Shown: one piece after another, positions 8,110-59,342 of the stretch | Numbering within the stretch: the first letter of the stretch is position 1 | How the letters are laid out: every line of letters starts with the position of its first letter | Assembly: GCA_963851265.1 (NCBI GenBank) | Contig: CAWKNZ010000002.1 | Location: 544,001-608,000, forward strand | From: an uncultured Gemmatimonadales bacterium | GTDB taxonomy: Bacteria; Gemmatimonadota; Gemmatimonadetes; Gemmatimonadales; Gemmatimonadaceae | Reading direction: 5' to 3' | DNA: 64,000 nt | Position numbers and translations under genes: made by a program | The notes under the pieces: generated by a model | Databases searched by the model: none | The model's input: the letters and a program-made list of their open reading frames with translations, nothing else | Told to the model about the DNA's origin: nothing

Positions 8110-10593
8110 CTAGCGGCCTGCCGTCTCGCGCGCGTCGTCGCGCGCCGACGCGGTCTCGCCCGGGAGCAGGGGCTGCTCGGGCGCCGTGTCGTCGACGACG
8201 ACGTAGTCAGGATCGTACGAGTAGTACTGGTACATGTTCGTCTCGGTCCCCACGCCGTTGAGGATCGCGCCCGCGACGGCGACGGGAAGGTGGTCGAAGA
8301 TCTTGAGCTTCGCCTTCGCGAGCCGCACGTCGGTGACGCCGCTACGGAGGACGACGGCGAGCTGGCCGCACGCGGTGCCGACGGCGTAGGCGTCGGTGCC
8401 AGCGCCTAACGGCGGCGTGTCGACGATGATCGCGTCGTGGTCGGCGCCGAGAGCGGCGAGCAGCTGCGGCAGGCGCGCGGTGGCGAGCAGCTCGGGGGCC
8501 CGGCGGTGCCGCTGACCGCCCGGCACGACCCAGAGGTTCTCGTGCCCCGTAGGGTGCACGACCTCCGACAGGAGGCTCGTGCCCTCGAGATACTCGACGA
8601 GCCCCGGCGACGCGGGGAGGTCGAACGTGCCGTTGAGCTGACCGCGGCGCACGTCGGCGTCGACGAGCACGGTCTTCCACCCGCCCTGCGCAAAGGCGAG
8701 CGCGAGGTTACTCGCGATGAGGGATTTCCCGTCGCCGGCGCCGGGGCTGGTGATCCCGATCGCGACCGGTTGGTTGGGCGCTGCGGCGTATCGCACGTTG
8801 AGGCGCAGCGCGCGGAACGCCTCGACGATCTGCGCCGCGCGCTCGGCGGACTGCCTGCCGCGGCCGTCATCGATGCGAGGTACGACGCCGAGCACCGAAA
8901 GGCCGAGCTCGCGCGTGACCTGTTCGGGGTAGCGGAAGCGGCGGTCGAGGATGTCGAGGAGGAGGGCCAGCACGACGCCGAGGGCTAGGCCCCCCGCGGT
9001 CGCGAGCGCGACGAGGCGGCTGCCGGTGCTGCTGGACGGCGTGAGCGGCATCACCGCCGAGTCGAGGACCTTGACGTCCGGCACCGAGGCCTGCTGTGCG
9101 AGGCTCGCGCCCGCGTAGTCGGACCGGAGGCGCGAATAAATGTCACCCTGCACCGAGACCTCGCGCCGGAGCGCGCCCTCGGCGGTGGTCCGAGCTGGGA
9201 TGGACTGCAGTTCGCGGGTCGCGGCGCCGAGTTGCTGCTGGACCGACGCCTCGCGGGTCTTCAGTGCGCCGATAAAGGCGTTGTTCTGCCGCAGCACGTT
9301 CTCGCGCGCGGCCGCGACGGCCTGCCGCTGGATCTTGACCGACGGCTCGGAATCGGTGAAGACGATTCGCGCCTTGTCGAGCTTGGTCTGTTGCTCGTTG
9401 TAGTCGGCGATGGCGGCCTTGAGCGGCGCCGCGCCCGGATCGCGGGCGACCGTGCTCACCGAATTGATGGCATCGACCGGCAGCGGACCGCCGGTCCGGA
9501 TCTGCTGCCCGATGCGCTCCAGCTGCTCGCGATCCGTGCGCGTCCCGTCGAGTTCGATCTTGCGAATCGCGAAGTTGTTGATCACCGGATCGCGCGTCAC
9601 CGTACCACCGCCGTTCGCGTCGCCCGCCGACACGACGACCTCCGACGGCTGCGTGATCGCGCCGACGCGGAACTGCTCGAGCGCGCGCTCCGACCCCTCG
9701 AGCTTCTGGCGCGCGGCTTCGAGCTGCGCGGCCAGCGTCGTCGCCTGCTGGTTCAGCTCGCGCTTCTTCAGATCGGTGGCGACGGTCACGAACTGGTCGA
9801 GCATCGCGTTCAGCGTCGCGGCCGGCCGCTGCTCGGCCGTCCCGTGCAGGCGCAGGTAGATGATCGGACTGCGCTCGTCGACGAACACGCCGAAGCGGTT
9901 GAGGACGTCGATGGTTGCTTCGCGCGGCGTGACCACCGTGAACTCGACCGACCGCTTGGCACTGCCGACCACATTGGCGCGCGGCGCCCACGCGAAGCCG
10001 GCCTTCCGGCCGATAGAGTCGCCGACGACTCCGGACTCGTTGACGGCGCCGACCTTGTCGGTCAGCGTCCAGCGTCCGGCGTTGACGTTGAGCGTGTAGT
10101 CGCCCGGGAAAAACCGATTCTGCGTGCGGTCGATCCCGAAGTTCGCGAACAGCAGCGAGTCGGACGCGTGCTGCGGACGGACGTAGAGCGCGAGTCGCAG
10201 CACCACGGGATCGGTGATCGCCGGGGCGCGGAGCAGGTCGCGCCACCCGCTGATTTGCGTGAGCGCGCCGCCGCGGGCTGTCCCGCCCGATCCGCCGGTC
10301 TGTGCAGACGGGGTGGTGAAGACGTCGGCGTTGACATCGTACTCCGGAGTCACGAACCGGCCGGCGACGACGCCCCCGATCGCTCCGATTGCCGTCGTCG
10401 CGACAATGATCCACTTGAAGCGCTGGAGGGCGCTCGCCAGGCGGCCGACGGTGATCGCGCTCGCCAGACCGCCCTCTTCGGGCGGCGGTCCGTACGCGGC
10501 CGCGGGGTCATACCCCTGGAGGCCGGCTGGCTCGGCGGGGGCGGGCAGCGACGGCTCGCCGCCAATCGGGACGGGCGTCAGGTTCGCAGACAT
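8110..10593 (-). CDS. wzc: Polysaccharide co-polymerase / tyrosine autokinase (Wzc-like)
   Basis: Two TM segments around a coiled-coil domain, Walker A SPGAGDGKS, LVDADVRR, IIVDTPP, C-terminal Tyr cluster YQYYSYDPDY. Confidence 0.92.
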   Translation of the reverse strand: MSANLTPVPIGGEPSLPAPAEPAGLQGYDPAAAYGPPPEEGGLASAITVGRLASALQRFKWIIVATTAIGAIGGVVAGRFVTPEYDVNADVFTTPSAQTGGSGGTARGGALTQISGWRDLLRAPAITDPVVLRLALYVRPQHASDSLLFANFGIDRTQNRFFPGDYTLNVNAGRWTLTDKVGAVNESGVVGDSIGRKAGFAWAPRANVVGSAKRSVEFTVVTPREATIDVLNRFGVFVDERSPIIYLRLHGTAEQRPAATLNAMLDQFVTVATDLKKRELNQQATTLAAQLEAARQKLEGSERALEQFRVGAITQPSEVVVSAGDANGGGTVTRDPVINNFAIRKIELDGTRTDREQLERIGQQIRTGGPLPVDAINSVSTVARDPGAAPLKAAIADYNEQQTKLDKARIVFTDSEPSVKIQRQAVAAARENVLRQNNAFIGALKTREASVQQQLGAATRELQSIPARTTAEGALRREVSVQGDIYSRLRSDYAGASLAQQASVPDVKVLDSAVMPLTPSSSTGSRLVALATAGGLALGVVLALLLDILDRRFRYPEQVTRELGLSVLGVVPRIDDGRGRQSAERAAQIVEAFRALRLNVRYAAAPNQPVAIGITSPGAGDGKSLIASNLALAFAQGGWKTVLVDADVRRGQLNGTFDLPASPGLVEYLEGTSLLSEVVHPTGHENLWVVPGGQRHRRAPELLATARLPQLLAALGADHDAIIVDTPPLGAGTDAYAVGTACGQLAVVLRSGVTDVRLAKAKLKIFDHLPVAVAGAILNGVGTETNMYQYYSYDPDYVVVDDTAPEQPLLPGETASARDDARETAGR

Positions 10594-10793
10594 CTACGAG
10601 GGGAGCGCGGAGGAACGGCCGCTCGGGCCGTGATATGGACGGTCGTGGACATGGCAATCGGGGCGGAGTGTCGGCGCGGTGCGGCACCGACCGTAGCACC
10701 GGCGCAGCAGCAGCTCGAGGTGTGGCACGGGCCACTCAAGCCGAAACCGTACCCGACCGACACCACAGCGTGCACCAACACAGCCGTCCCACT

Positions 10794-10809
10794 TGCGACG
10801 GCTGTGCCG
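10794..10809 (-). promoter_or_regulatory. Candidate sigma-54 (-24/-12) promoter for the wzc operon
   Basis: Minus strand CGGCAC-AGCCG-TCGCA has GG-N10-GC spacing; intergenic, points at wzc, next to a sigma-54 activator gene. Confidence 0.5.
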
Positions 10810-10961
10810 CATCGCCGGATGCTGGCACCCGGGACGTCGTCGGCCACGTACCCCGTTCGGCGGAAAAAAGTGTCGCCGTCCCGCGAAGTCGAGAGCCGCC
10901 CCGCACCGCAGCACGCCTGCTCCGCGGGCGTACCTCCTCTGTAGGACCCCGCCCCCCTCCC

Positions 10962-12548: not shown

Positions 12549-12556
12549 GGCGCCAC

Positions 12557-17332: not shown

Positions 17333-18091
17333 ATGAACATTCGCCGCCGCGTCGCCCTCTCGAACCACCCGCTCGGGGTCGCCGCCCGCCGCGCGTACCG
17401 GTCGTCGCTGAAAGTGCACGTTCCGGTACCGCGGCTGCTCGGCCGCGCGCTGCGCGTCGTCCACCATTCGGTGCGCGGCACGTACTACGGGGCGTACCGC
17501 CTTTTCGTGTGCGAGCCGCTCCTGCGCGCTGCCTCGACGTCGTACGGCCGGAACCTGCGGGGTGGAACGTTCATCCCGTGGGTGGTGGGCGGGGGCGACC
17601 TCGTGTTCGGCGACGACTGCGTGGTCGTCGGGAAGCTGAACGTGTGGTTCGCCACGCGTTTCTCGGACCGCCCAACGTTGACGATCGGTAACCGCACCGG
17701 GATCGGTCACGATTGCGCGTTCACCGTGGCGAAAGGGATCACGATCGGCGATGATTGCCACATCGCCGGCGGGACGCGGATGTTCGATTCGAGCGGGCAC
17801 CCGCTCGACCCGGAACGCCGACGTCTCGGCGAGCCGCCCGACGACGCCGACGTGAAGCCGATCACGATTGGCAACAACGTGTGGATCGGAGCGTACTCCA
17901 CGGTTTTTCCGGGCGTGACGATCGGCGAGAACAGCGTCGTCGCGACCGGGTCGGTGGTCACGGGCGACGTGCCGCCCAACACGCTCGTGGCCGGGTACCC
18001 GGCTCGACAGATCAAGAAGCTCGACGCCGCGGCGCCGCCCGCGACACCGTCATCGACGCGCCCGCACGTGGGCAGCCTGACACCCGCCTAA
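17333..18091 (+). CDS. Hexapeptide-repeat (LbH) acyltransferase, copy 1
   Basis: ITIGDDCHIAGG, DSSGHPLD, IGNNVWIG, PGVTIGENSVVATGSVVTGDVP, AGYPAR (MAT/GAT-like). Confidence 0.9.
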   Translation: MNIRRRVALSNHPLGVAARRAYRSSLKVHVPVPRLLGRALRVVHHSVRGTYYGAYRLFVCEPLLRAASTSYGRNLRGGTFIPWVVGGGDLVFGDDCVVVGKLNVWFATRFSDRPTLTIGNRTGIGHDCAFTVAKGITIGDDCHIAGGTRMFDSSGHPLDPERRRLGEPPDDADVKPITIGNNVWIGAYSTVFPGVTIGENSVVATGSVVTGDVPPNTLVAGYPARQIKKLDAAAPPATPSSTRPHVGSLTPA

Positions 18092-18105
18092 CCAGGCAAC
18101 CACAA

Positions 18106-20191: not shown

Positions 20192-20945
20192 TCCCCGCGG
20201 GAGCATCGGAGGCGCTGCGTTCATCGCGCCGCGATGCGGCGGGGCACCCGAGCGCCGCGTGCGTCGCGCACTGCGGCCGGACGGGGCACAGTTCGCAACG
20301 CCGCACCCGAGCCGTGCAGACGATCGCGCCGAGTTCCATCAGCGCCTGGTTGTGCGTCCAGGCGGCGCGGCCGGTCCGCGGTAAAATGATTTCGGCGAGG
20401 CGCCAGATCCGCGCGAGGTCGCGCGGCCGCTTGGGGTCAAGCTCGGGTGCGAATACGCGCGCGAGCACCCGGCCGACGTTCGTGTCGACGAGCGCGGTAC
20501 GGCGTTCGTAGGCGAAGCTGGCCACGGCGCCCGCGGTGTACGCGCCGACGCCCGGCAGTTGCCGGAGAGCCGCGGGTTCGGCGGGGATGTCGCCGTGGCC
20601 GGAAGCGTTGGTCACCTGGCGCGCGAGCGCGTGCAGATTGCGGGCGCGCGCGTAATACCCGAGGCCGGCCCACGCGCCGGTCACGTGCTCGACCGGGGCT
20701 TCGGCCACGTGGCCTAACGTGGGGAAGCGCTCGAGGAATCGCGCGTAGTAGTCGACCACGCGCGCGACCTGAGTTTGCTGGAGCATGAATTCCGAGACGA
20801 TGACGCGGTACGGGTCGCGCGTCTGGCGCCACGGCAGGTCCCGGCCCGACTGGCGGAACCACGCGCGCAGGCGGCGGCCGAAGGCCTGGGCTCGGACGGC
20901 GTCGATCGCGGGCTCGTCGCCCGGGCGGACGCCGCGTCGGCTCAC
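20097..20945 (-). CDS. mutY: A/G-specific adenine glycosylase (short form)
   Basis: DLPWR, VSEFMLQQT, WAGLGYYARARN, HhH LPGVGAYTA, VDTNV, 4Fe-4S C-x6-C-x2-C-x5-C; GTG overlaps the upstream stop. Confidence 0.9.
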   Translation of the reverse strand: MSRRGVRPGDEPAIDAVRAQAFGRRLRAWFRQSGRDLPWRQTRDPYRVIVSEFMLQQTQVARVVDYYARFLERFPTLGHVAEAPVEHVTGAWAGLGYYARARNLHALARQVTNASGHGDIPAEPAALRQLPGVGAYTAGAVASFAYERRTALVDTNVGRVLARVFAPELDPKRPRDLARIWRLAEIILPRTGRAAWTHNQALMELGAIVCTARVRRCELCPVRPQCATHAALGCPAASRRDERSASDAPAGTTPAGRRPSPTPPHPTNSRRRNPRRERADQP

Positions 20946-21565: not shown

Positions 21566-22845
21566 TGCACCGTCTTGGTTTTGCGCCGCAGGAAGTCCAT
21601 CAGCACGAACTGGCCTAACGTCATCGTGCTCGTGAAGTACGCCTTCCCCCGCGCGATCTCGCTCACCCGCTTCACGAACTCGACGAGCGACCGGTCGCGC
21701 GCGAGCATGAACGTGTTGATCATGATCCCCGCCCGCCGGCAGTCGGCGACCTCCTTCAGCGTCTCGGCCAGCACGCCCGCGTCGAGTCCCATCGGATTCT
21801 TGTAGATCATCCCGTTCGGCAGCGTGAGCGCGCTCGGCTTGCCGTCGGTGATCATCACGATCTGGCGCATGTCCTTCTTCTGCGCCTGCAGGATGCGCCG
21901 GGCGAGTTTCAGGCCCTCGGCGGTGTTCGTGTGGTACGGGCCGACCTGCGCGTGCGCGAGCTGCGAGATCGGGATCTCTTCGGCCGAATCGTGGAAGAGC
22001 ACCACGCGGACCGTGTCTCCGGGAAACTGCGTGCGGATCAGGTGCGCCAGCGCGAGGGCGACCTTCTTGGCCGGGGTGAAGCGGTCCTCGCCGTAGAGAA
22101 TCATCGAGTGCGACGTGTCGAGCATGAGCACCGTCGCGCAGCTCGAGCGGTACTCGGCCTGGCGCACCATGAGGTCCGGGTAGTCGAGGTCCATCGGGAC
22201 CTCGATCTTGCCCGTGCGCGCGAGCGAGTTCTTGAGCGTCTCGTTGATGTCGAGGTTCATCACGTCGCCGAACTCGTACGGCTTGCTGAAGCCGTCGCTC
22301 TCGATGCCCGTCGACAGGTACGGCGTGTCGTGGCTGCCGACGCTGCTCTTCCCGAGGCTGCCTAACAGGTGGCGGAGCGTCTTGTAGCCGAGGAAGTCGA
22401 TGCCCTTGTCCGTGAGGTTGAACTGGACGTCCTTGCTCGCCGCGTGGCCGACCGAGCCCTTGCCCGTGACCGGCTGCTGCGCGCCGGGCATCTGCGGGGC
22501 GGGGCCGTCGGTCTTGAGGAACCCCTCGCTCACGAGGCGCTGCACGAGCTGGTCGAGCAGTTCGGCGAGCTTGGCGTTCGCGTCGTCGTCGCCGTCGCCG
22601 CGGAGCGCCTCGAGCATCTCCGGGGTGAACTGGCCGCTCTCGAGCAGGGCGTCGAGGATGGCCTGCTTCAGCCCGTCGAGCGACCGGTCGGCATCCTCGC
22701 CCGTCTCACCCCAGAACGGGTGCGACTGCGCACCGCCGGCGAAGCCGGAGTCGAGCAGGAAACCGGCGAGCTTGTCGAGCAGCGACTGCAGGTCGACCGC
22801 GTCGGCGATCTCGGGGCTGTACTTCGTGTACGTGTGGAAACGCAT
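21562..22845 (-). CDS. VWA domain-containing protein
   Basis: MIDAS-like [18 protein letters not shown]. Confidence 0.9.
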
Positions 22846-26052: not shown

Positions 26053-27537
26053 TCAGGAACCGAACAGGTCCTCGCCCGGGCGGCGACGCTTTTCGGATAC
26101 CGCGCGGCCGTACTGCCCGCGGTCGTTGCGCGAGATCTTGCGCCGCGCGACGAGCGCTTCGAGCACCAGCTCGCACGCGGCCGCAGTCGCCCCGGGATCG
26201 TCGGGGGTCGCGAGACCCGTCCGGTGGACGATGTCGAGGAGCTGCGGCACCGCGCTGAACGCCTGGGCGACGAGCGTGGAGGGCTGCTCGTCGTCGACCT
26301 GGAGCGCGCCGCCCTCGTCGAACCAGATGATGACCTGGTCGAGGTTGGGCGTACCCGCGCGGGCCTTGAGCGTGGCGTCGGCCGCGCGCCGGATCAGCTC
26401 GCGCGCGATGGAGGCGCCGCCGACGAGTTCGCCTTCGTACTCGAGTTCGAGCTTGCCGGTGATCGCGGGCAGCGCGGCGAAGATGTCGGCGATGCGTGGG
26501 ACGACCTCGGTCTCGCCGGTGCGCACGGCACGCCGCTCCGCGTTGCTCACCACGTTCTCCATGACCGTGATGGGCATGCGCTGCGAGACGCCCGAGCGCT
26601 TGTCCACGCGCTTGTCGCCGCGCGCCTCGAACGCAACGCGCTCGATGACCTCGGAGACGAGCTCGGGAACGCGCACGGCGCGCGCGAACTCGTCGCGGGT
26701 TTCGCCCGCGCCCTGGCGCGCGGTCCACGCCTCCTGCTGCGTGATCGCCATCCCGAGCTCGACCTCTTCGGGGTAGTGGGTCACGATCTCGGAGCCGATG
26801 CGGTCCTTGAGCGGCGTGATGATCTTGCCGCGGGCCGTGTAGTCCTCGGGGTTGGCGGTGAAGCAGAGGAGGACGTCGAGCGGGAGGCGCACGGGGTAGC
26901 CCTTAATCTGGACGTCCCCCTCCTGCATGATGTTGAACAGGCCCACCTGCACCTTGCCGGCGAGGTCGGGAAGTTCGTTGAGGGCGAAGATGCCGCGGTT
27001 GGCGCGCGGCAGCATGCCATACTGGATGGTGAGCTCGTCGGAGAGCAGGTGCCCGCCGCGCGCGGCCTTGATCGGGTCGACGTCGCCGATGATGTCGGCG
27101 ATGGTCACGTCGGGGGTGGCGAGCTTCTCGACGAAGCGCATGTCGCGGTCGACCCAGGCGATGGGCGTGTCGTCGCCCTGCTCGGCGATGAGCTGCTTGC
27201 CGAACTTGCTGATGGGCCGGAACGGGTCGTCGTTGACCTCGCTCCCGGCCAGCACGGGCATTTCGGGGTCGAGGAGGGTGACGAGCGCGCGCAGGATGCG
27301 GCTCTTGGCCTGCCCGCGGAGGCCTAACAGGATGAAGTTGTGTCGCGAGAGCAGGGCGTTGACGATCTGCGGCATGACGGTGTCCTCGTAACCGAGGACG
27401 CCTTCGAAGAGCGGGCCGCCGGCGGCGAGGCGGGCGAGCAGGTTGCGGCGCAGTTCGTCCTTCACGGAGCGCGCGCGGCGCTCGGCATACCCGGCGGCGC
27501 GCAGGGCGCCGAGGGTGTTGGGCAGCGTGGTCGTCAC
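26053..27537 (-). CDS. AAA+ ATPase, Mg-chelatase ChlI-like family (likely VWA partner)
   Basis: Walker A variant GLRGQAKS, RANRGIFALNELPDL, TANPEDYT, PLKDRIG; GTG start at 27537. Confidence 0.85.
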   Translation of the reverse strand: MTTTLPNTLGALRAAGYAERRARSVKDELRRNLLARLAAGGPLFEGVLGYEDTVMPQIVNALLSRHNFILLGLRGQAKSRILRALVTLLDPEMPVLAGSEVNDDPFRPISKFGKQLIAEQGDDTPIAWVDRDMRFVEKLATPDVTIADIIGDVDPIKAARGGHLLSDELTIQYGMLPRANRGIFALNELPDLAGKVQVGLFNIMQEGDVQIKGYPVRLPLDVLLCFTANPEDYTARGKIITPLKDRIGSEIVTHYPEEVELGMAITQQEAWTARQGAGETRDEFARAVRVPELVSEVIERVAFEARGDKRVDKRSGVSQRMPITVMENVVSNAERRAVRTGETEVVPRIADIFAALPAITGKLELEYEGELVGGASIARELIRRAADATLKARAGTPNLDQVIIWFDEGGALQVDDEQPSTLVAQAFSAVPQLLDIVHRTGLATPDDPGATAAACELVLEALVARRKISRNDRGQYGRAVSEKRRRPGEDLFGS

Positions 27538-37228: not shown

Positions 37229-37250
37229 GGGGCTCGCGCCTAACGGCTCG

Positions 37251-41340: not shown

Positions 41341-44300
41341 GTGCCTCGCTCCCGCCGCCGACTCGCCGCCTACCTCGCGGCTGGCACCCTCCTCGTCGTC
41401 GCCGGCGGGGCGGTCGGGCTCGTCGTCGCCGTGACCCAGACGAACGCCGGGCACGACTGGCTCCGCAGCAAGCTGCTGTCGACGGTCGCGCCGAGCGTGC
41501 GCGGGCGGCTGTACGTGGGCGCGATCAGCGGGGGGTTGTTCTCCGGCGTCACCGTCGATTCGGTCGAGTTGCGGAGTGCGGACGACTCGCTCGTGGCGGC
41601 GGTCGGACGGGTGCACGTCGCGTACGCGCTCCGCGACCTGATCGACAAGCGCGTGTTCCTCAAGCGCGTCGACCTCGACCGCCCGGTGATCCACCTACGG
41701 CAGTTCGAGGATGGGCACTGGAACTACAACGGCCTGTTCAGGACGAGTGCGGACAGCACGCCGAAGAGTGGGCCGGGGTTCGGGGATTTCATCGTCGCCG
41801 ATTCGGTGCGGGTGCGCGGGCTGCAGTTCGCGCTCACGCTGGCGTGGCACCCCGCCGATTCGCTGCGCGGCGCACGGCGCGACAGCGCGATCCGCGTCGC
41901 GCTCGCCGGTCGCACGCAGGGCGGGGCGGAGATCCGGCGCGTCGGGCGGTACTACAACCGCACGTACCGCTGGAGCGGCGACGCCGACCTGCCCGGGATG
42001 CGCATCGCGCGGCCGGACAGCGCGGGGCTCCGGTTCCAGGTGGCGCGGCTGGACCTCGACGAGACGGACCCGCCGTTCCGCTGGCGCAACATCCGCGGCG
42101 ACGTGCGGATCCTCGGCGACACGCTCCATGCCGACTTCCCGCACTGGGACCTCCCGGGGAGCACGGGGCAGGGGCACGCGACCGTGGTGTGGGGGAGCGA
42201 CCTGCCGATCCGGTGGGACATCCGCGTGCATGCCGATTCGATGGCGCTGGCGGACGTCTCGTGGGTGTACCCGACGCTGCCGACCACCGGCGGCGGCTCG
42301 ATGGACCTGTACATGCACAACCGGCGCGGCGACCTGCGCATCATGGAGTACGCGCTGTCCAACATGGACGTGCGTACGACGCGCTCGCACCTGACCGGGG
42401 CGATGACGTTCGCGGTGGGCGCGCCGGTGTTAGGCGTGCAGGACGTCGACGTCGCGCTGCAGCCGGTGAACTGGGACCTGCTGCGCACGTTCAACGGCAA
42501 GGCGCTGCCGTACGACTTCCAGGGCACGCTCACCGGCACGGTGAAGGCGCGCGGCGGCCCGGTGAACCGCTTCGCGGTGGACGACGCGCAGGTGACCTAC
42601 GACGACGCGCACGTGCCGGGCGCCGTGTCGCGCGTGCGGCTCGCGGGCGCGCTCGACATCCTCCGGCCGGCCGACACGCGCTTTCTCGGACTGCGGGTGA
42701 CGGACGCGTTCGTCGACCTGCGGACGCTCGAGTTCCTCAACCCGAGCTTCCCGCGGCTGCGCGGCGTGGTGACGGGGAGCACGACGCTCGACTCGCTCTA
42801 CACCGACGTGCGGCTGAGCGACGCGCGCCTGACGCACAGCGACGGCCCCGGCGCGGCGAGCACGTTCACCGGCGGTGGGCGGGTCACGTTTGGCGAGGGG
42901 CCCACGCCGACGCGCTACGACCTGACGCTGGCGGCGGAGCCGCTGTCGTTCACGACGCTGGCGCGCTCGTACCCACTGGTGGCGGTGCGCGGGTCGTACG
43001 CCGGGCCGCTGCGCATCACGGGCGCGACCGACAGTCTGGGGCTCGTCACCACGCTCACCGGGCCGGGGGGGACGCTCGCGTACGACGGGATCGTCAACGC
43101 GCTCGACCCGCGGTACGGGGCGACGGGCGCGTTCACGGGGACGGGGCTCGACCTGCGCACGCTGTTCGACGACCAGCGCCTGCCGCGCACGACGCTCGAC
43201 CTGCGCGCATCGCTCGCCCTCGTCGGTACGGGGCTGGCCGACCTCGCCGGCACGCTGCGCGCGGACCTCGGCCGCTCCGAGATCGGCGGCGTGCGCGCGT
43301 ACGGCGGCGCGGCCGCGCTGCGCTTCGCCGGTGGGCGCATGGCAGTCGACACGCTACGGCTCGAGACCGCGGCGGGGCAGGTGGCGGGCGCGGGCGGGCT
43401 CGGGCTGGCTGGGCCGGCGCGCGACTCGCTGCGGCTCGCGATCTCGATCGATTCGTTAGGCGGGCTGCGGCGGTGGCTGTCGCCGAGCGCGGTGACGGCC
43501 GAGCGCGCGGCGGTCGCGGGCGCGAGCCCGGCGGCGCGGGCGGCGGCGCGCGACCCCGTCGCGCGGCTGGTGGACGAGGCCACGCGGCGGCCGGTGGCGG
43601 GCGTGATCGCGCGCGTGGCCGGGACCGCCGGGACGGACCCGGCCGCCGCCGCGGCACCGGCGCGCGATTCGGCGGGCGCCCCCGCGGGAGGTGCCACGGC
43701 GGCGGCGCCGCCCGCGACCACCGACTCGCTCGCCGGCACGCTGCGCGCGACGGTCACGCTCGCCGGAACGCTCGACAGCGCGGCCGCCGACGGGCTCCGC
43801 GCGTCGGCCGCGGTCGACGGGCGCGGGCTCGTCTACGGCGGGTTCGCTGCGCGCGCGCTCACGCTGCGCGTGGGGGCCACGTCGCTCCGCTCGGTGCCGA
43901 ACGTGACCCTCGCGGCGACCGCGGATTCCGCGAGTGCTGGGGCGGTGACGTTCGCGAGCGCGGCGGCGCACTTCAGCGGGACGACCGCGGGCGGGCGCTA
44001 CGACGTGGCGATGGGGAGCGATTCCGGGCTGTCGCTCTCGGGCGCGGGGCACACGGTGAGCGTGGGCGACAGCACTGTGGTCGCGCTCGACAGCGCGCGC
44101 GTGGTGCCGCGCCCGGGGCACCTGTGGACGCTGGCGGCGCCGACGCGCTTCGTCGCGCGTGGCGGTACGGCGCTCGCGCCGGGCACGGGCGAGGCGGGCG
44201 GGGTCCTCGCGCTCGATCCGTTCACCCTGCGCGGCGAAGGCGAGGACCTGGGGTCGCGTCTGACGCTCGCGGCGACGCTGCCCGAGCGGGGCCCGGTCAC

Positions 44301-49118: not shown

Positions 49119-50120
49119 ATGGCAACGACCGTGCAGGGCCTCGCGCCCGGCCCGTCGGACGTCGCGCCCGAGCCGGCGCCGACCCCGCGGCCGGGCGCGA
49201 CGCGCACCACCCCGCCCTCAGGCGCCCAATCCGCATCCGCCGCCGCCGGCACGCGCGCCGACCATGCGCTGCTCGTGCTCATGGCGCTCATCTGGGGCGT
49301 CAACTTCAGCGTGCTGAAGGTCGGGACGCGCTACGTCGACCCGGCCACGTTCAACGGCGCGCGCGTGCTGCTCGCGACGCTCGTGCTCGCGGTGGCCGCG
49401 GCGGTCCGCCGCGCCCCCGCCCCCTCGCGCGCCGACGCGCTGCGCCTCGTGCTGCTGGGCGTGCTCGGGAACGGCGTCTACCAGCTGTGCTTCATCGAGG
49501 GGCTCGCGCGCAGTGAGAGCGGGACCACGGCCCTGATTCTCGCGGGCGGGCCCGCCTTCATCGGCATCATCGGGCGGCTGGTCGGAACGGAGCGGCCGAG
49601 CGCGCGCGCGTGGGGCGGGATCGCGCTGCAGGTGGCCGGAGTCGCGGGCGTCGTGTTCGGCGCTGCGGCGGCGATGCCGGCTGCTGGAGCTACGAACGCG
49701 CCGGTGGGTGTGCTGCTCGTCGTCGCGGCGTCGCTCGCGTGGTCGGTGTACGCGGTACTGCTCAAGCCGCTCGCGCGGCGCGTGGATGGCGTGCAGGTCG
49801 CGGCGTGGACGCTCGCCGGCGGCGCGCTCACGCTCGGCGCCGCGGCCGTGCCGGCGATCGCGCGCGGGGCGCTCGGCGCGCTGCCGGTGCAGGGGTGGGC
49901 GGCGATGGCGTACAGCGGCGTGCTCGCCCTCTCGGTCGCGTACCTCTTCTACTACCGCGGCGTGCGCACGGTGGGCGCGGTGCGCACGGCGATGTACACC
50001 AACCTGCAGCCGGTGGTCGCGCTCGGCGTCGGCTTCGTGGCGTTAGGCGAACGGCCGGGCGGGTGGCAGCTCGTCGGCGCCGGGCTCATCGGCGCGGGCC
50101 TGCTTGCCTCGCGTGACTGA
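49119..50120 (+). CDS. DMT/EamA family transporter
   Basis: IWGVNF, about ten hydrophobic segments, NLQPVVA, LGE. Confidence 0.92.
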   Translation: MATTVQGLAPGPSDVAPEPAPTPRPGATRTTPPSGAQSASAAAGTRADHALLVLMALIWGVNFSVLKVGTRYVDPATFNGARVLLATLVLAVAAAVRRAPAPSRADALRLVLLGVLGNGVYQLCFIEGLARSESGTTALILAGGPAFIGIIGRLVGTERPSARAWGGIALQVAGVAGVVFGAAAAMPAAGATNAPVGVLLVVAASLAWSVYAVLLKPLARRVDGVQVAAWTLAGGALTLGAAAVPAIARGALGALPVQGWAAMAYSGVLALSVAYLFYYRGVRTVGAVRTAMYTNLQPVVALGVGFVALGERPGGWQLVGAGLIGAGLLASRD

Positions 50121-51382: not shown

Positions 51383-51775
51383 GTGATCCTCGGCGTCGGG
51401 TTCGATCTCGTCGACATCGCGCGCGTCGCGGCGCTCCTCGAGTCCAAGGGCGAGCGCGCGGTCACGCGGCTGTTCTCACCCGCGGAGGCGGAGTACGCGC
51501 GGGCCCGCGCGGAGCCCGCACGCCACTTCGCCGCCCGATTTGCGGCGAAGGAGGCCGTGTACAAGGCGCTCGCCGGGACTGCGGAGGCGCGCGGCATCGG
51601 CTGGCGCGATACGGAGGTCGTGACCGCATGGGACGGGCGCCCGCAGGTCGTGCTGCACGGGCGCGCGGCCGAATGCGCGGCCGCGTTAGGTGTCGTGCGG
51701 GTGCACCTGTCGCTCACGCACGCCGAACTCGTCGCCGGCGCGGTGGTGGTGCTGGAGGGCGCGCCGCCGGCGTAG
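51383..51775 (+). CDS. acpS: Holo-[ACP] synthase
   Basis: GVGFDLV, AARFAAKEA.YKALA, GRP, LSLTH. Confidence 0.95.
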   Translation: MILGVGFDLVDIARVAALLESKGERAVTRLFSPAEAEYARARAEPARHFAARFAAKEAVYKALAGTAEARGIGWRDTEVVTAWDGRPQVVLHGRAAECAAALGVVRVHLSLTHAELVAGAVVVLEGAPPA

Positions 51776-52291
51776 CCGCCGGCGCACGCCCGTCTCGACG
51801 CGGCCCCCGCCGCCGAGGACGGCCAGGGTGAGCACGGTTCCCGAGAGCACTATCGCCCACGCCCCGACCCCCGCGGCCAGGCCGAGCCCGGCCGCGACCC
51901 AGATGGTCGTGGCGGTCGTGAGACCGCGCACCTCGCGCCGCTGGCGCGGTCGCGACCGGCCGGCGTCGGCGCCTGCGGGTGTCGCGCGAGCCCCGCGCGC
52001 GGCGCGCGGTGGTCGCACGGCGGGTGCGGGCTGTGGGTGCAGGATCACGCCCGCGCCGACGAAGCCGATCCCGGTGATCACGCCCTGCATCACGCGCGTG
52101 GCGCCGGCGGCGTCGGCCTGCGCGGCGGCGGCCGTGACGAGCGCCGCGCCTAACGCGACGAGCGCGTGCGTGCGCAGCCCGGCGGCCTTGCCGTGGAGGT
52201 TGCGGTTGACGCCTAGCGCCGCGCCGGCGAGCGTCGCGGCGGACAGCCGCGCGGCGATTTCGCCGAACGGCAGGAGACCGGACGCGATCAC
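51686..52291 (-). CDS. MgtC/SapB family membrane protein
   Basis: AGLRTHALV, ITGIGFVGAGVI, GLTTATTIW; GTGA overlap with the upstream gene. Confidence 0.88.
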   Translation of the reverse strand: MIASGLLPFGEIAARLSAATLAGAALGVNRNLHGKAAGLRTHALVALGAALVTAAAAQADAAGATRVMQGVITGIGFVGAGVILHPQPAPAVRPPRAARGARATPAGADAGRSRPRQRREVRGLTTATTIWVAAGLGLAAGVGAWAIVLSGTVLTLAVLGGGGRVETGVRRRLRRRRALQHHHRAGDEFGVRERQVHPHDT

Positions 52292-53409
52292 GGTGACGCG
52301 CTCACGGGTGCGACCCGCCATGCCGCCCAGTCGGCCCGCACCGCCTCCAGCATGTGCTCGGCCGAGTCGGCGAGCCAGTGCGCCCCGAGCGCATGGTCGG
52401 CGGCGCGCAGCTGCTCGGCGAGCACGCGCGGCGCGGTTCCGCCGAGGTGGACGTTCGCGGTCTCCCACCCCATCGCGTGCAGCAGGTGCCGCTCGTCGCG
52501 GCGCCGCGGAAGCTCGGCGAGGTCGAAGCGGCGCATGTCGGGCGCGAGGCGGCGCACGATCCACCGGCGCCGCGCGCGGTAGAACGGATCGACGCACCGC
52601 ACCGCGCCCTCGACCGTCTCGCGGATGCGAACGTCCGCCGCGCGCGGCGCGGACCCGGCGGCCCACGCGACCGCGCTCGGCGCGACGGCCTTCACCTCGC
52701 GCGCGATCCGCCCACCCTGCCACTGGGCGACGGCGACGAGCCGCGTGCGCCCGAGGCTCCCCACGCCAGCCACGCGCCGCGAGACGCGCGCGCGGAGTCC
52801 GCGCGCGGGCAGCGACGCGTCGAGCGCGCGGCACGCCCCGGGCGGCGGCCTGTCGTCCGCGGCGACTGCCGGGAGCGCGTCGAGCTTCGCCCAGAACGCT
52901 TCCGCGTCGGGCCGTTGCGCCTGCCACATCGCGCGGAGCCCCGAGTGCTGCTCCGCCAGCACGTACGGCATGCCGCCCGCGGCGAGCGCGTCGCGGTAGC
53001 CGCCGAGCACCGCGTCCGCCGCCGCCCGCGGGTCGCTCGCCAGCGCCTCGTGCTCGGCCGCGAGGTGCGCGCTCGCCGTTAGGCGCACGAGGTCGTGCGG
53101 CCAGGCGAGCGGCGCCGCCTCGTCGAAGTCGTTCACGCCCCACGCCAGCCGCCCCTCGGCGTCCCGCCACGTCCCGAAGTTCTCGACGTGCAGGTCGCCG
53201 ACGCTCGACACGCGGCGGAGTGCGGCGAGCTCGGGGCAGCGGCGCGGCCACCAGCTCGCCCAACGGTAGAACGTCGCCCGGAGGAACACGAACGGGCTCT
53301 CGCGCATGAGCGCGTGCTTGTGGACGAGGTCCGCCGCGATGAGGGGGGTGTAGCGGCCCAACCATGTTTCGTAGTCCGCGGTCGCGTCGCGGACGGTGCC
53401 AATTCCCAT
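52288..53409 (-). CDS. DUF2252 family protein
   Basis: MRESPFVFLRAT, GDLHVENFG, NDFDEA, RVAGVGSLG. Confidence 0.85.
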   Translation of the reverse strand: MGIGTVRDATADYETWLGRYTPLIAADLVHKHALMRESPFVFLRATFYRWASWWPRRCPELAALRRVSSVGDLHVENFGTWRDAEGRLAWGVNDFDEAAPLAWPHDLVRLTASAHLAAEHEALASDPRAAADAVLGGYRDALAAGGMPYVLAEQHSGLRAMWQAQRPDAEAFWAKLDALPAVAADDRPPPGACRALDASLPARGLRARVSRRVAGVGSLGRTRLVAVAQWQGGRIAREVKAVAPSAVAWAAGSAPRAADVRIRETVEGAVRCVDPFYRARRRWIVRRLAPDMRRFDLAELPRRRDERHLLHAMGWETANVHLGGTAPRVLAEQLRAADHALGAHWLADSAEHMLEAVRADWAAWRVAPVSASP

Positions 53410-53507
53410 GACCGACGATGGCGACGGTGATCCGCGTGCGCCATCGTCTGGTACCGCTAACCTGCCGTTAAGGACGCGTCCGCCATGCGGGAACGGGCCC
53501 TACGGGG

Positions 53508-53666: not shown

Positions 53667-53699
53667 GCGCGCGTGCTCCTGCGGTCGTGAAGGTTCCGG

Positions 53700-55934: not shown

Positions 55935-55936
55935 GG

Positions 55937-56236: not shown

Positions 56237-56439
56237 GTCGACGACCGGCAGTGCGCGACGTGGCCGGCGGTCCTGCGAGCGACGAAAGAGGTTCAGCACG
56301 GACGGGTGCGGCGGAAGAGCGACGCCTCGCGAGTGCGGGGCGGGTCGCATGTACGCAATCTGACGGCCGGCGACAATCCCGTCAATCGGGTTCGGAATTC
56401 TGCGGCGTGGCTGTGGCGATTCGCCGGCCGGCGCTACCG

Positions 56440-57303: not shown

Positions 57304-57312
57304 GCGAGGAAG

Positions 57313-58383: not shown

Positions 58384-58736
58384 GGGCGGTCGCCGACGGT
58401 CACGCCGCGCACCGCGAGCCCCGAGAGGCCGCGCGGGAGGATCACGTCTTCGGGACGCGGCGTGGCCGAGCGGGGCCCCGCGGCCGCGGCACGCGCGCGC
58501 AGCACCGGTGGCCGCACGGCGAGCAGGGCGATCGTCCCCGCGGCGCCGTCGACGAGCGCATACACGCCCCCCGCGGCCGCGTACGCGCCGGCCGTGCGCC
58601 CGAACACGCGCACCGGCACGTACGCGCGCGCCGGCTCCAGCGCGCGCACGAACAGCCAGAGCGCGACCGCGACCACCGCGCCCGCGAGCTTCTGCGGCAC
58701 GTGCCGCGCGTACCATGCGTTAGGCGGCGTCGCCAC
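58380..58736 (-). CDS. Small membrane-anchored protein, possibly a reduced YbbR/CdaR-like protein
   Basis: KLAGAVVAVALWLFV resembles YbbR N-termini; DVILPRGL; coupled to tsaD by GTGA. Confidence 0.5.
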   Translation of the reverse strand: MATPPNAWYARHVPQKLAGAVVAVALWLFVRALEPARAYVPVRVFGRTAGAYAAAGGVYALVDGAAGTIALLAVRPPVLRARAAAAGPRSATPRPEDVILPRGLSGLAVRGVTVGDRP

Positions 58737-58757
58737 GGGCCGGTCGTCCGCCGCGGG

Positions 58758-59342
58758 TCAGCGCGCGCCCGACTCGTCGAGCAGCCGGCCGATGAGCGCG
58801 CGGTTCTCGGGCGAGTTCCAGTCCTGCGCGTACGCCTTCTTGCGCACCACGCCGTCGGTGCCGATCACGAAATTCTCGGGCACGCCGGTCGACTGGTAGA
58901 CCTTCTGGATCGTCCCCGCCGAGTCGTGCAGCACGTCGTAGGTGACGTGGTACGGGGCGAGAAATTCGCGGATCTTCTTGGGCGCGTCGGCGCCCTCGTC
59001 CACGCTCACGGCGACGATCTTGAAGCCGCGCGGCGCGAAGTCGCGGTAGAGCGCCTCCAGGCTCGGGATCTCCTCGCGGCAGGGCGCGCACCACGTCGCC
59101 CAGATGTTGACCAGCACCACCTGCCCGCGGTAGTCCGCGAGCCCGCGCACGCCCGACGCCGGGCGCGCCGCGGCGCCGCGCGCGTCCGAGGTCTGCACGG
59201 CGTTCGCCGTGAACGCGGGCGCGGGGCCGCCGACGCTCACCGGGAAGAGTTCCTCGCCTAACGTACGCGAGGCGACCCAGAGGCCGCCGCCCAGGAGCGC
59301 GACGATCGCGGCGATGATGGTCCACTGCTGCCGTACCGTCAC
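58758..59342 (-). CDS. TlpA/ResA-like thiol:disulfide oxidoreductase
   Basis: N-terminal TM, NIWATWCAPCREE, GVPENFVI. Confidence 0.93.
   Translation of the reverse strand: MTVRQQWTIIAAIVALLGGGLWVASRTLGEELFPVSVGGPAPAFTANAVQTSDARGAAARPASGVRGLADYRGQVVLVNIWATWCAPCREEIPSLEALYRDFAPRGFKIVAVSVDEGADAPKKIREFLAPYHVTYDVLHDSAGTIQKVYQSTGVPENFVIGTDGVVRKKAYAQDWNSPENRALIGRLLDESGAR

What the first reader, a model, noticed from the sequence alone, without database searches (positions are those of the whole stretch)
8404..59262. Strongly over-represented dispersed heptamer GTTAGGC/GCCTAAC: candidate lineage-specific DNA signal
Seen: 15 exact copies by manual count. GCCTAAC on + at 8404, 18086, 20712, 21613, 22360, 27322, 37238, 52148, 59256; GTTAGGC on + at 40286, 42429, 43455, 50042, 53078, 58719; near-match GTTAGGT at 51685. 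TTAG/CTAA is otherwise scarce (about 6 other instances found), so most of these tetramers share identical flanks, usually CGTTAGGC or TGTTAGGC. Eleven copies read in frame as TTA-GGC (Leu-Gly), a codon normally avoided at this GC content. The other four are intergenic (37238), across a stop codon (18086) or antisense to that reading (53078, 58719), which points to selection on DNA rather than protein. Both orientations occur. Established: dispersed motifs of this kind include DNA uptake sequences, HIP1, Chi and KOPS, and the heptamer fits the integron attC core GTTRRRY/RYYYAAC. Inference: an uncharacterised uptake, recombination, methylation or nucleoid-protein binding signal.
Basis: partly seen in the sequence, partly recalled or inferred. 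Interest (0 to 1): 0.85.

Follow-up and report, generated by a model that had tools for sequence, protein, structure and literature searches.

The report
Genome-wide DNA word YGTTAGGC, integron-core look-alike
This soil bacterium and scattered relatives have written one exact eight-letter DNA word into their genes, stop codons and spacers far more often than chance, much like the "self tags" a few bacteria use when exchanging DNA, and the word spells the core recombination site of this order's integrons; what reads it is unknown.

Summary
The window has 15 GTTAGGC/GCCTAAC copies at the stated coordinates (shuffles give 2.4). The genome has 1,762, which is 71% of all its TTAG tetramers. The full word is YGTTAGGC, the most over-represented 8-mer in the genome (1,396 against 58 expected).

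It is a DNA-level signal. It occurs in every usable reading frame on both strands, across stop codons and between genes. It shows no transcription-strand preference once opportunity is counted, and no replication polarity. Copies avoid each other within about 300 bp. They are kept at orthologous sites more often than ordinary 7-mers, yet turn over between species.

Word-rich lineages are scattered through Gemmatimonadales (18 of 401 phylum genomes), always with the same word. Four of four word-poor relatives have no substitute word.

The word equals the R''/R' boxes of this order's integron attC sites, but richness does not track intI. Chi/KOPS-like, methylase-linked and extra-FtsK readings are disfavoured.

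The best reading is an uptake-sequence-like self tag with an unknown reader (about 0.4). The scan had already reported this word from at least six other windows of this genome.

The parts
8404..8410 (-). Word copy, in frame CCG-TTA-GGC (Pro-Leu-Gly), residue 728 of 827 of a Wzz/GNVR/CbiA-type chain-length/tyrosine-kinase-like gene (8110-10593, minus)
   Evidence: The orthologous site is ATTAGGC in G004 and the exact word in G001.
18086..18092 (-). Word copy whose complement GCC-TAA-C supplies the TAA stop of a hexapeptide-repeat transferase gene (17333-18091, plus). It is the only window copy with G rather than C/T before the word.
   Evidence: Not aligned in G004 or G001. Genome-wide, 119 of 412 TAA stops lie in GCCTAAC.
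20712..20718 (-). Word copy, intergenic by my gene calls. It would be in frame TTA-GGC if the ORF 20097-21329 (minus) is real.
   Evidence: Exact word at the orthologous site in both G004 and G001.
21613..21619 (-). Word copy, in frame ACG-TTA-GGC (Thr-Leu-Gly) in a VWA-domain gene (21562-22845, minus)
   Evidence: Conserved in G004 and G001.
22360..22366 (-). Word copy, in frame CTG-TTA-GGC (Leu-Leu-Gly) in the same VWA-domain gene
   Evidence: Exact word in G004; G001 has GTTGGGC (TTG-GGC).
27322..27328 (-). Word copy, in frame CTG-TTA-GGC in a gene with no Pfam family (26053-27537, minus)
   Evidence: G004 and G001 have CTC-GGC/CTC-GGG, so Leu-Gly is kept and the word is specific to G000.
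37238..37244 (-). Word copy in the 22-bp spacer between two minus-strand genes (36296-37228 and 37251-38921)
   Evidence: Exact word in G004, absent in G001.
40286..40292 (+). Word copy, in frame CCG-TTA-GGC in an Omp85/POTRA outer-membrane assembly gene (39057-41291, plus)
   Evidence: Exact word in G004; G001 has GGTGGGC.
42429..42435 (+). Word copy, in frame GTG-TTA-GGC in a TamB-family gene (41341-46209, plus)
   Evidence: Conserved in G004 and G001.
43455..43461 (+). Word copy, in frame TCG-TTA-GGC in the same TamB-family gene
   Evidence: Conserved in G004 and G001.
50042..50048 (+). Word copy, in frame GCG-TTA-GGC (Ala-Leu-Gly) in an EamA transporter gene (49119-50120, plus)
   Evidence: G004 has CTC-GGC; G001 has the word.
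51685..51691 (+).
   Evidence: One search confirms the sequence. Both G004 and G001 carry exact GTTAGGC at the orthologous place, so this is a C-to-T loss in G000.
52148..52154 (-). Word copy, intergenic by my gene calls. It would be in frame TTA-GGC if the ORF 51686-53365 (minus) is real.
   Evidence: Exact word in G004; G001 has CTC-GGC.
53078..53084 (+). Word copy antisense to a DUF2252 gene (52288-53409, minus), read there as CGC-CTA-ACG (Arg-Leu-Thr)
   Evidence: Absent in G004 and G001.
58719..58725 (+). Word copy antisense to a small gene (58380-58736, minus), read there as CCG-CCT-AAC (Pro-Pro-Asn), residue 4 of 118
   Evidence: Falls in an indel or unrelated sequence in G004 and G001.
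59256..59262 (-). Word copy, in frame ACG-TTA-GGC in an AhpC/TSA-thioredoxin-like gene (58758-59342, minus)
   Evidence: Conserved in G004 and G001.

Best explanation
YGTTAGGC is a functional DNA-level word, not a by-product of codons or composition. An as yet unidentified protein that reads all seven core base pairs (plus a pyrimidine in front) on double-stranded DNA, in either orientation, gives a small advantage to chromosomal DNA that carries a copy every few hundred to few thousand bases. Point mutations that create the word are therefore retained wherever the protein code tolerates them, even at the cost of the genome's rarest codon and of occasional amino-acid changes. Examples are CTG to TTG to TTA before GGC, CCN to CCT before AAC, and flanks of TAA/TAG stops. 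I think the advantage most likely lies in DNA exchange. The word would act like the uptake sequences of Neisseriaceae and Pasteurellaceae, a self tag that biases which DNA is taken up (or otherwise transferred) and recombined, so that it spreads partly by molecular drive. Shown here: the enrichment, frame independence, strand symmetry, absence of polarity, short-range repulsion, orthologous conservation with turnover, the phyletic scatter, and the identity with the attC R box. Inferred: that a protein reads it, and that the process is DNA uptake or exchange.
For: DNA-level selection:
- Copies fall in all six usable placements: 987 sense TTA-GGC, 197 antisense CCT-AAC, 108 GCC-TAA stops, 76 xGT-TAG stops, 71 antisense CTA, 24 GTT-AGG, and 299 intergenic, of 1,762.
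- Occupancy of synonymous-compatible sites is 9.2% sense (982/10,690) and 13.7% for the best antisense placement (194/1,415), so transcription strand does not matter.
- 119 of 412 TAA stops and 81 of 718 TAG stops lie in the word.
- Intergenic copies show the same flank preferences.

Sharp specificity:
- CGTTAGGC is 28x and TGTTAGGC 26x an order-2 expectation. All 24 one-off forms together are 0.99x (4,147 against 4,180), and the synonymous stepping stone CGTTGGGC is 2.2x.

Symmetry:
- 708 forward and 688 reverse.
- Sense/antisense counts are 555/188 in plus genes and 532/188 in minus genes.
- Neighbouring words in opposite-strand genes share orientation 160/431 = 0.371 against 0.382 expected. 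Intergenic neighbours are 140 same and 147 different.

One copy per neighbourhood:
- Among 1,257 gaps between coding copies, 2.5% are under 300 bp against 9.0% (sd 0.7) in 300 opportunity-matched resamplings, and 0.24% against 3.2% are under 100 bp.

Maintenance with turnover:
- 49 of 83 G000 copies are exact at the orthologous site in G004 (83% nucleotide identity). The controls are 34% for all 7-mers, 40% for GCTCGGC and 16% for GTTGGGC.
- In 80 kb aligned in three congeners, 74 sites carry the word in at least one genome and 9 in all three.

Self-tag pattern:
- Occupancy rises from 4.4% in the quartile of genes with the least native codon usage to 9.3% in the most native.
- In RpoB the conserved Ala-Leu-Gly is GCG-TTA-GGC in G000, G001, G004 and G012, and CTC/CTG in word-poor genomes. 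G012 even has Ala to Gly where that makes a word.

Exchange machinery is present in G000: ComEC, ComEA-like proteins, one beside PilB/PilT genes, 9 N-methyl pilin-like genes, DprA, two secretins and three PilT-family ATPases.

A few intergenic inverted pairs form hairpins, as Neisseria DUS pairs do.

No paper found links Gemmatimonadota to uptake sequences (0 papers).
Against: - Nothing here shows uptake, transformation or binding. The competence genes are near-universal and occur in word-poor genomes too: ComEC in G288, and the PilA-like paralogue's globular domain in 28 of 31 relatives whatever their word load.
- Known uptake sequences drift into lineage-specific dialects with their receptor. 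Here independent lineages in three families carry the identical word, and 4 of 4 word-poor relatives sampled (400 kb each) have no alternative word.
- One-mismatch forms are not over-represented, whereas they are 3x and 5.8x expected in H. influenzae and N. gonorrhoeae (PMC1939737, section 5 read). The 80-90-fold drop seen there would predict only about 1.3x here, which my crude model could not resolve.
- The repulsion between copies reaches only about 300 bp, shorter than the kilobase fragments usually taken up.
- The exact identity with the attC R box is unexplained by a plain uptake model.
Confidence: 0.4

Rival explanations
1. Integron-linked signal. The dispersed words are lone R boxes read by the integron integrase or an IntI/Xer-type relative. 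They could serve as secondary (attG-like) recombination or docking sites. Alternatively they are written because some exchange step is tuned to the attC core shared by the order's cassette pool.
For: - In word-poor genomes the clustered, same-strand hits spaced about 550 bp apart are canonical attC arrays. Each is GCCTAAC, a 90-142 nt imperfect hairpin, then (C)GTTAGGC. This holds for 7 of 7 copies on the array strand in G021 C80 (next to intI), for 25 of 29 in G021 C95, for 7 of 8 in G019 C3 and for 8 of 9 in G374 C2.
- G000 has its own attC-like elements with 8-bp arms GCCTAACG...CGTTAGGC on C10 (4) and at C6:1591-1708, near intI pieces.
- The consensus R'' RYYYAAC / R' GTTRRRY and integrase use of non-classical genomic attG sites are in print (PMC12901181, passages read).
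- One fixed word in independent lineages with no dialects fits a specificity anchored outside each genome.
- A random hyper-abundant 7-mer would equal this exact box about 1 time in 8,000 (my arithmetic).
Against: - intI over the curated cut-off is found in 18 of 31 relatives with no relation to word load. Word-poor G005, G006, G007, G009, G010, G014, G019, G020, G024, G025, G026, G028 and G029 have it. Word-rich G002, G008 and G018 show only generic Xer-like hits, and G001 and G012 only broken pieces. Some of these genomes are 78-93% complete.
- Dispersed copies lack the L box and hairpin. Only about 8 of 1,762 sit in attC-like pairs.
- Most copies lie inside conserved genes such as rpoB, where cassette insertion would be lethal.
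- Precise insertion and excision would not write the word.
Confidence: 0.2
2. Binding sites of an abundant chromosome-organising (nucleoid-associated) protein that needs one site every few hundred bases or more.
For: The word is orientation-independent and non-polar, its position within genes is uniform (KS p = 0.14), and copies closer than about 300 bp are avoided while 500-1000 bp gaps are in excess.
Against: - I recall no nucleoid protein with an exact 8-bp site and thousands of selected copies (recalled, not searched).
- The trait is scattered among close relatives, even within one genus (G288 has 66 copies against 3,479-4,141 in three congeners). That is odd for a housekeeping organiser.
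- The one large word-free hole, around parAB/gidA in G000, is not kept in G004 or G299.
Confidence: 0.15
3. A word tied to DNA modification or repair: a methylase target used for strand discrimination or self-marking (HIP1-like, Campylobacter CtsM-like, MutH-like), or enriched by very-short-patch-type biased repair.
For: Precedents exist for hyper-abundant words that co-occur with methylases (recalled: HIP1 in cyanobacteria). The word is asymmetric, like Type IIG/III/BREX targets (recalled).
Against: - PF02384 gives only broken pieces in G000 and nothing in G001, G002, G008, G017 or G018.
- PF01555 gives nothing in G000, G001, G002 or G018.
- PF00145 gives nothing in any of the five g1 genomes, G008 or G012.
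- PF02086 gives nothing in G000, G001, G004 or G012.
- Single-step biased repair cannot make TTA from CTC, and one-off forms are neither depleted nor enriched overall.
Confidence: 0.05
4. A recognition word of a mobile DNA-transfer machine, such as a conjugative FtsK/TraB-like double-strand translocase or a gene-transfer-agent packaging protein, that mobilises chromosomal segments.
For: Eight-base asymmetric words are what FtsK-family gamma domains read (recalled: KOPS, SRS, Streptomyces TraB TRS). A mobile reader would explain one word in scattered lineages.
Against: Every one of the 29 relatives with a match has exactly one FtsK_SpoIIIE gene, whether word-rich or word-poor. Plasmid contigs may be missing from these bins. 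Packaging proteins were not searched.
Confidence: 0.05
5. A polar guide or protection signal such as Chi (RecBCD/AddAB) or KOPS (FtsK).
For: The length and copy number resemble E. coli Chi (8-mer, about 1,000 copies; recalled).
Against: There is no orientation bias on any of 12 contigs, and no excess co-orientation of neighbouring copies after allowing for gene strand (p = 0.36 and 0.69). GC skew is too weak to place replichores, so the neighbour test carries the weight.
Confidence: 0.03

Closest known systems
DNA uptake sequences: DUS of Neisseriaceae (read by minor pilin ComP) and USS of Pasteurellaceae
   Same: A short exact word at roughly one per 1-3 kb, equal on both strands, inside genes in several frames and between genes. 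It overrides codon preference, is richer in native than in atypical genes, occasionally forms inverted pairs making hairpins, and is conserved yet turning over.
   Different: Uptake bias is untested. It lies in a different phylum with no known transformation. There are no dialects: the same word recurs in separate lineages and word-poor relatives have nothing instead. One-mismatch forms are not detectably enriched (against PMC1939737 section 5). The word equals an integron recombination box.
Integron attC R''/R' boxes (RYYYAAC / GTTRRRY) and non-classical genomic attG sites
   Same: Letter-for-letter identity with the R'' and R' boxes of attC sites in this order, including the preceding C (consensus from PMC12901181, passages).
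   Different: Dispersed copies are single boxes without an L box or hairpin. They lie mostly in essential coding sequence and do not track intI.
HIP1 (GCGATCGC) of cyanobacteria
   Same: A hyper-abundant exact octamer written through coding regions against codon expectation, patchy among relatives, function unknown (recalled).
   Different: HIP1 is palindromic and associated with cognate methylases (recalled). This word is asymmetric, and G000 and G001 lack intact members of four methylase families.
Chi and KOPS/SRS polar octamers
   Same: An eight-base asymmetric word with about a thousand copies.
   Different: Those are co-oriented with replication. This word shows no polarity.

Membership tests
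DNA uptake sequence (DUS/USS) | Short exact word, hundreds to thousands of copies, far above expectation, equal on both strands | tested here: met
   1,762 copies of the 7-mer. The 8-mer occurs 1,396 times against 58 expected, with 708 forward and 688 reverse.
DNA uptake sequence (DUS/USS) | Competent cells preferentially take up DNA that carries the word | not testable with these tools
   Needs uptake or transformation competition assays in a cultured word-rich strain.
DNA uptake sequence (DUS/USS) | A dedicated surface receptor (ComP in Neisseria) that binds the word | tested here: inconclusive
   G000 has 9 pilin-like genes. The one extra PilA-like paralogue tested has homologues in 28 of 31 relatives regardless of word load. 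Minor-pilin clusters were not tested.
DNA uptake sequence (DUS/USS) | Uptake machinery present (type IV pilus, secretin, PilT, ComEA, ComEC, DprA) | tested here: met
   This is necessary but not specific: ComEC is also in word-poor G288.
DNA uptake sequence (DUS/USS) | Related lineages carry diverged dialects of the word | tested here: not met
   The same word occurs in all word-rich lineages of three families. There is no substitute word in 4 of 4 word-poor genomes sampled at 400 kb each: top 8-mer z is 11 or less, against about 50 in equal samples of G000 and G004.
DNA uptake sequence (DUS/USS) | Graded over-representation of one-mismatch forms | tested here: inconclusive
   All 24 one-off forms total 4,147 against 4,180 expected. 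In H. influenzae and N. gonorrhoeae they are 3x and 5.8x (PMC1939737, section 5). The expected effect here (about 1.3x) is within the error of my model.
Integron attC / attI site | R box matching GTTRRRY / RYYYAAC | tested here: met
   GTTAGGC fits the consensus and is the actual R' (and its complement the R'') of attC sites in G021, G019, G374 and G000. Consensus from PMC12901181.
Integron attC / attI site | Paired R''-L''...L'-R' imperfect hairpin of about 60-140 nt | tested here: not met
   Only about 8 convergent pairs at 66-149 bp fold this way. The other roughly 1,750 copies are single.
Integron attC / attI site | Occurs with an integron integrase | tested here: not met
   intI is over the cut-off in 18 of 31 relatives, unrelated to word load.
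Chi / KOPS polar signals | Copies co-oriented along each replichore | tested here: not met
   orientation follows only gene strand, and neighbour co-orientation is at expectation.
HIP1-like methylase-linked word | Palindromic word with a cognate DNA methylase in the genome | tested here: not met
   The word is not a palindrome. There is no intact PF02384, PF01555, PF00145 or PF02086 member in G000 or G001.

The most novel reading that the evidence does not exclude
A DNA-exchange step, most simply the uptake receptor, in Gemmatimonadales is tuned to the integron attC R box. Cells would then preferentially capture free gene cassettes. In lineages where this exchange is frequent, molecular drive has copied the cassette 'address label' thousands of times into the chromosome's own genes. 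That would tie natural transformation to the integron cassette pool. It would also explain why unrelated lineages converge on one identical word with no dialects.
Probability: 0.12. Interest if true: 0.9.

Novelty: new variant of a known kind. Interest (0 to 1): 0.75.

Why it matters
Selected genome-wide words with a known role are very few (DUS, USS, Chi, KOPS), and HIP1 remains unexplained. A new one in a soil phylum with few cultured members would point to an unrecognised, sequence-specific DNA process there, probably DNA exchange. Its identity with the integron attC core, and its recurrence unchanged in separate lineages, raises a testable link between how cassettes travel and how chromosomes are marked. 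Practically, the word is a marker for binning contigs and for spotting imported DNA in these genomes.

Tried and rejected
- Max-order Markov z-scores hide the word, because its own sub-words are made of it (1,762 against 1,722 'expected'). I used order 2-3 models instead.
- GC skew and gene-strand-corrected GC3 skew show no replichore signal. Polarity was therefore tested by contig symmetry and neighbour co-orientation instead.
- My first idea was that the dense same-strand clusters in word-poor genomes were mis-binned or transferred DNA from word-rich organisms. They are integron cassette arrays.
- intI as driver: no correlation.
- Extra PilA-like pilin as a differential reader: present nearly everywhere.
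- ComEC loss as the explanation for word-poor G288: ComEC is present there.
- Methylase families PF02384, PF01555, PF00145 and PF02086: not shared by word-rich genomes.
- Extra FtsK/TraB-like translocase: one copy per genome everywhere.
- dif-like reading of the one GCCTAAC-N6-GTTAGGC pair (C2:11210): it is simply a long perfect hairpin.
- The largest word-free gap (45 kb, around gidA/parA/parB/mnmE) as a functional exclusion zone near the origin: not conserved in G004 or G299.
- Ssn-type single-strand nucleases (PMC11893778, passages) target 20-50 nt hairpin repeats, not bare 8-mers, so I did not pursue them.
- The first RpoB tree mixed in wrong ORFs and was redone.
- A literature search for the heptamer itself returns 2,205 papers. 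The 25 listed were primers and the like, so it cannot show absence.

Full report
**Observation.** The window is G000:C2:544001-608000 of a 4.60-Mb, 12-contig, 73% G+C assembly. Its RpoB is 82-84% identical to MAGs labelled Gemmatimonas, Gemmatimonadaceae or Gemmatimonadetes. That confirms the family name I first saw in earlier notes of this scan.

In 100 shuffles the mean was 2.37 and the largest 7. One search confirms 21 TTAG/CTAA tetramers: 15 in the word and 6 elsewhere, one of them the near-match GTTAGGT at 51685.

By my own crude gene caller (3,602 genes, 88% coding), 9 copies are in frame as xxG-TTA-GGC. That becomes 11 if two alternative long ORFs are the true frames. One copy supplies a TAA stop, two are antisense and one is plainly intergenic. 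The host genes are ordinary: Omp85, TamB, EamA, AhpC/TSA-like, VWA and a Wzz-type kinase.

**Genome-wide picture.**
- GTTAGGC occurs 1,762 times, which is 71% of all 2,470 TTAG tetramers.
- The base before is C (79%) or T (14%). Both CGTTAGGC and TGTTAGGC are about 27-fold over an order-2 expectation, so the word is YGTTAGGC.
- CGTTAGGC is the top 8-mer of the genome: 1,396 against 58.3, z 175.
- 996 of 1,271 TTA codons precede GGC.

The 1,762 copies divide as follows:

| Placement | Copies |
|---|---|
| Sense TTA-GGC | 987 |
| Intergenic | 299 |
| Antisense CCT-AAC | 197 |
| GCC-TAA stop | 108 |
| xGT-TAG stop | 76 |
| Antisense CTA | 71 |
| Sense GTT-AGG | 24 |

Counting only sites where a synonymous change could write the word, occupancy is as follows:

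| Placement | Occupied / compatible | Occupancy |
|---|---|---|
| Sense Leu-Gly | 982 / 10,690 | 9.2% |
| Antisense Pro-Asn | 194 / 1,415 | 13.7% |
| Antisense CTA | 70 / 1,859 | 3.8% |
| Val-Arg | 23 / 3,371 | 0.7% |

The excess of sense copies therefore reflects opportunity, not a transcription-strand effect. In addition, 119 of 412 TAA stops and 81 of 718 TAG stops sit in the word. One-off forms are not enriched (4,147 against 4,180), apart from the degenerate first position and the stepping stone CGTTGGGC at 2.2x. This is a sharply specified DNA-level signal.

**Symmetry and spacing.**
- Forward and reverse counts are equal (708/688).
- Sense/antisense counts are the same in plus and minus genes (555/188 and 532/188), and on each contig.
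- GC skew gives no replichore information here, so I used a test that needs none. Neighbouring copies in genes of opposite strand share orientation in 160 of 431 cases (0.371 against 0.382 expected). For the same strand it is 464 of 731 (0.635 against 0.618). Intergenic neighbours are 140 same and 147 different. There is no polarity.
- Position within genes is uniform.
- Copies repel each other at short range. I compared them with 300 resamplings of the compatible sites:

| Gap | Observed | Resampled (sd) |
|---|---|---|
| Under 100 bp | 0.24% | 3.2% (0.43) |
| Under 300 bp | 2.5% | 9.0% (0.73) |
| Under 500 bp | 7.2% | 14.2% (0.94) |

Gaps of 500-1000 bp are in excess.
- Occupancy rises with native codon usage, from 4.4% in the lowest quartile to 9.3% in the highest.

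**Evolution.** The region is collinear with G004 and G001, congeners at about 83% and 82% nucleotide identity.
- Of 83 G000 copies in aligned blocks, 49 (59%) are exact in G004. The controls are 34% for all 7-mers, 40% for GCTCGGC and 16-27% for other rare-codon words. For G001 the figure is 11 of 24.
- Turnover is nevertheless high. In 80 kb aligned in all three genomes, 74 sites carry the word somewhere: 9 in all three, 26 only in G001, 17 only in G004 and 3 only in G000. Another 10 are shared by G004 and G001 but missing in G000.
- Over 252 kb, G004 has 124 copies and G000 has 76 at aligned positions. Given the RpoB tree, G000 seems to be losing words relative to its sister. This is an inference from one region.
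- In the window, 9 of 15 copies are exact in G004 and 7 in G001. The near-match at 51685 is a decayed copy of a word kept in both.
- In RpoB, a universally conserved Ala-Leu-Gly is GCG-TTA-GGC in G000, G001, G004 and G012, and CTC/CTG in 17 other genomes. G012 carries 10 words in rpoB, including an Ala-to-Gly change that makes one. Word positions mostly differ between lineages.

**Distribution.** Among 31 relatives the 8-mer is rich in all five genomes of the genus (727-2,415). It is also rich in G008 (605), G012 (6,360 in 5.1 Mb), G017 (460), G018 (516) and G030 (345, another family). G016 is weak (194), and the other 19 are poor at 65 or fewer.

In a draw of 401 genomes of the phylum at 80% completeness or better, those with 300 copies or more were distributed as follows:

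| Group | Genomes with 300+ copies |
|---|---|
| f1 | 13 of 95 |
| f2 (all genus g75) | 5 of 166 |
| f3 | 0 of 5 |
| Nine other families | 0 of 135 |

Within genus g42, three genomes have 3,479-4,141 copies, while G288 (RpoB 92% identical over 736 residues) has 66 in the genome and none in rpoB.

On a quick RpoB tree of 27 rows, word-rich lineages are interspersed with poor ones. G002, G008, G013 and G014 gave no rpoB match, and G005 and G017 are partial. The rich lineages are g1, G012+G018, G017 (beside poor G015), weak G016 (beside poor G011) and G030 (beside poor f3).

Four of four word-poor genomes sampled (G006, G015, G029, G028; 400 kb each) have no alternative hyper-abundant 7- or 8-mer. 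Their top 8-mer z is 11 or less, against about 50 in equal samples of G000 and G004. The trait is therefore present or absent with one fixed word, not a family of dialects.

These tallies include unpublished genomes G011, G078, G117 and G198, all word-poor.

**Integron link.** In word-poor genomes the hits cluster on one strand at about 550-bp spacing. These are cassette arrays with canonical attC sites: GCCTAAC, a 90-142 nt imperfect hairpin, then (C)GTTAGGC. One array lies beside intI (G021 C80); others are in G021 C95, G019 C3 and G374 C2.

G000 has attC-like elements of its own: four on C10 between 188.9 and 203.8 kb, and one at C6:1591-1708 near intI pieces. The word is thus exactly the R-box duplex of this order's integrons. 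The consensus is from PMC12901181 (passages), and integrons in Gemmatimonadota from PMC8618304 (passage).

Word load does not follow intI, which is over the cut-off in 18 of 31 relatives, both rich and poor. All but about 8 copies are lone boxes.

**Other candidate readers.**
- G000 has a full uptake kit. So do word-poor genomes where I looked.
- Four DNA-methylase families are not shared by word-rich genomes. G000 has only broken PF02384 pieces, and G001 has none of the four.
- Every relative with a match has a single FtsK gene (29 of 31).

**A hole that misled me.** The largest word-free gap (45 kb, C1:182,876-227,962, normal G+C) holds gidA, parA, parB and mnmE. The same neighbourhood in G004 and G299 is full of words. 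In G000 the block is 75-82% identical to G004 while its flanks are about 87% identical. It looks like an imported or otherwise divergent block rather than an exclusion zone.

**Reading.** The evidence supports a protein-read, orientation-free DNA word kept by selection or drive.
- It works most like an uptake sequence, which is my best reading at about 0.4.
- It fails the dialect feature, and uptake itself is untested.
- The attC identity is too exact to ignore, so an integron-linked rival gets about 0.2.
- Nucleoid-protein sites get about 0.15.
- Methylation-linked, transfer-machine and Chi/KOPS readings are weak.

**Literature searches.**
- (Gemmatimonadota plus 'DNA uptake sequence'): 0 papers.
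- (Gemmatimonadetes, integron, attC): 2 papers, unrelated by title and abstract.
- (Gemmatimonadota, integron, cassette): 7 papers, none about such a word by title and abstract.
- ('DNA uptake sequence' plus attC): 15 papers, 10 listed. By their titles and abstracts these do not link uptake sequences to attC. I read passages of only one of them.
- (the heptamer itself): uninformative.

I found no description in print within that library. Subscription journals are not covered. The scan itself has reported this word from at least six other windows of this genome.

Noticed in passing
G000:C1:182876-227962 (L166-L168), outside the window: The largest word-free gap in the genome (45 kb, G+C 0.738). 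It holds gidA/mnmG, parA, parB, mnmE and other housekeeping genes. It is 75-82% identical to G004 while its flanks are about 87% identical. The same neighbourhood in G004 and G299 carries many words. It is possibly a large homologous import from a word-poor donor.
   Followed up: partly
G000:C6:1591-6044 and G000:C10:188935-203792: G000's own integron remnants. intI matches come in two pieces about 2 kb apart (C6:5244-6044 and 3005-3166), so the gene is possibly interrupted, with an attC-like element at C6:1591-1708. There are also four attC-like elements on C10 with no integrase seen nearby.
   Followed up: partly
G000 C2:410-730 kb against G004 and G001 (includes the window): G000 carries fewer words than its congeners at aligned positions (76 against 124 in G004). 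Polarised by G001, it shows 10 losses and 3 gains, against 2 losses and 17 gains in G004. The driving process may be weakened in G000.
   Followed up: partly
G000:C7:759615-764501: A membrane-anchored ComEA-like gene (about 199 aa, missed by my gene caller) directly upstream of PilB-, PilT- and a third pilus-ATPase/PilC-like gene. This looks like a competence-style cluster.
   Followed up: partly
G000:C7:771474-772495 and G000:C9:923-1858: N6_Mtase (PF02384) matches split over several frames. They are apparently decayed Type I/IIG methylase genes.
   Followed up: no
G004:C2:340001-740000 (L057-L076); G029:C1 and G028:C1 samples: Other, lower-copy repeat families. G004 has a 10-mer family around CAGGATGACA/TCATCCTGAG (24-27 copies per 400 kb, 66-107x). 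G029 has CTGCCCCGCT (49 copies, 17x). G028 has GTTGCCAGAC (20 copies, 53x). They are probably parts of longer dispersed repeats.
   Followed up: no
window:51686-53409: Two long overlapping minus-strand ORFs in different frames (51686-53365 and 52288-53409). The DUF2252 match covers only part of the profile in two stretches. This may be a frameshift or a mis-called gene.
   Followed up: no
window:16001-20000: A local dip in G+C to 0.661 in a 0.70-0.77 background, next to polysaccharide-type genes (Wzz-like kinase, hexapeptide transferase).
   Followed up: no
G000:C2:11210, C2:116117, C7:601245, C7:567606, C8:177680: Intergenic inverted pairs of the word embedded in longer perfect palindromes (terminator-like hairpins), reminiscent of paired DUS in Neisseria terminators.
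   Followed up: partly
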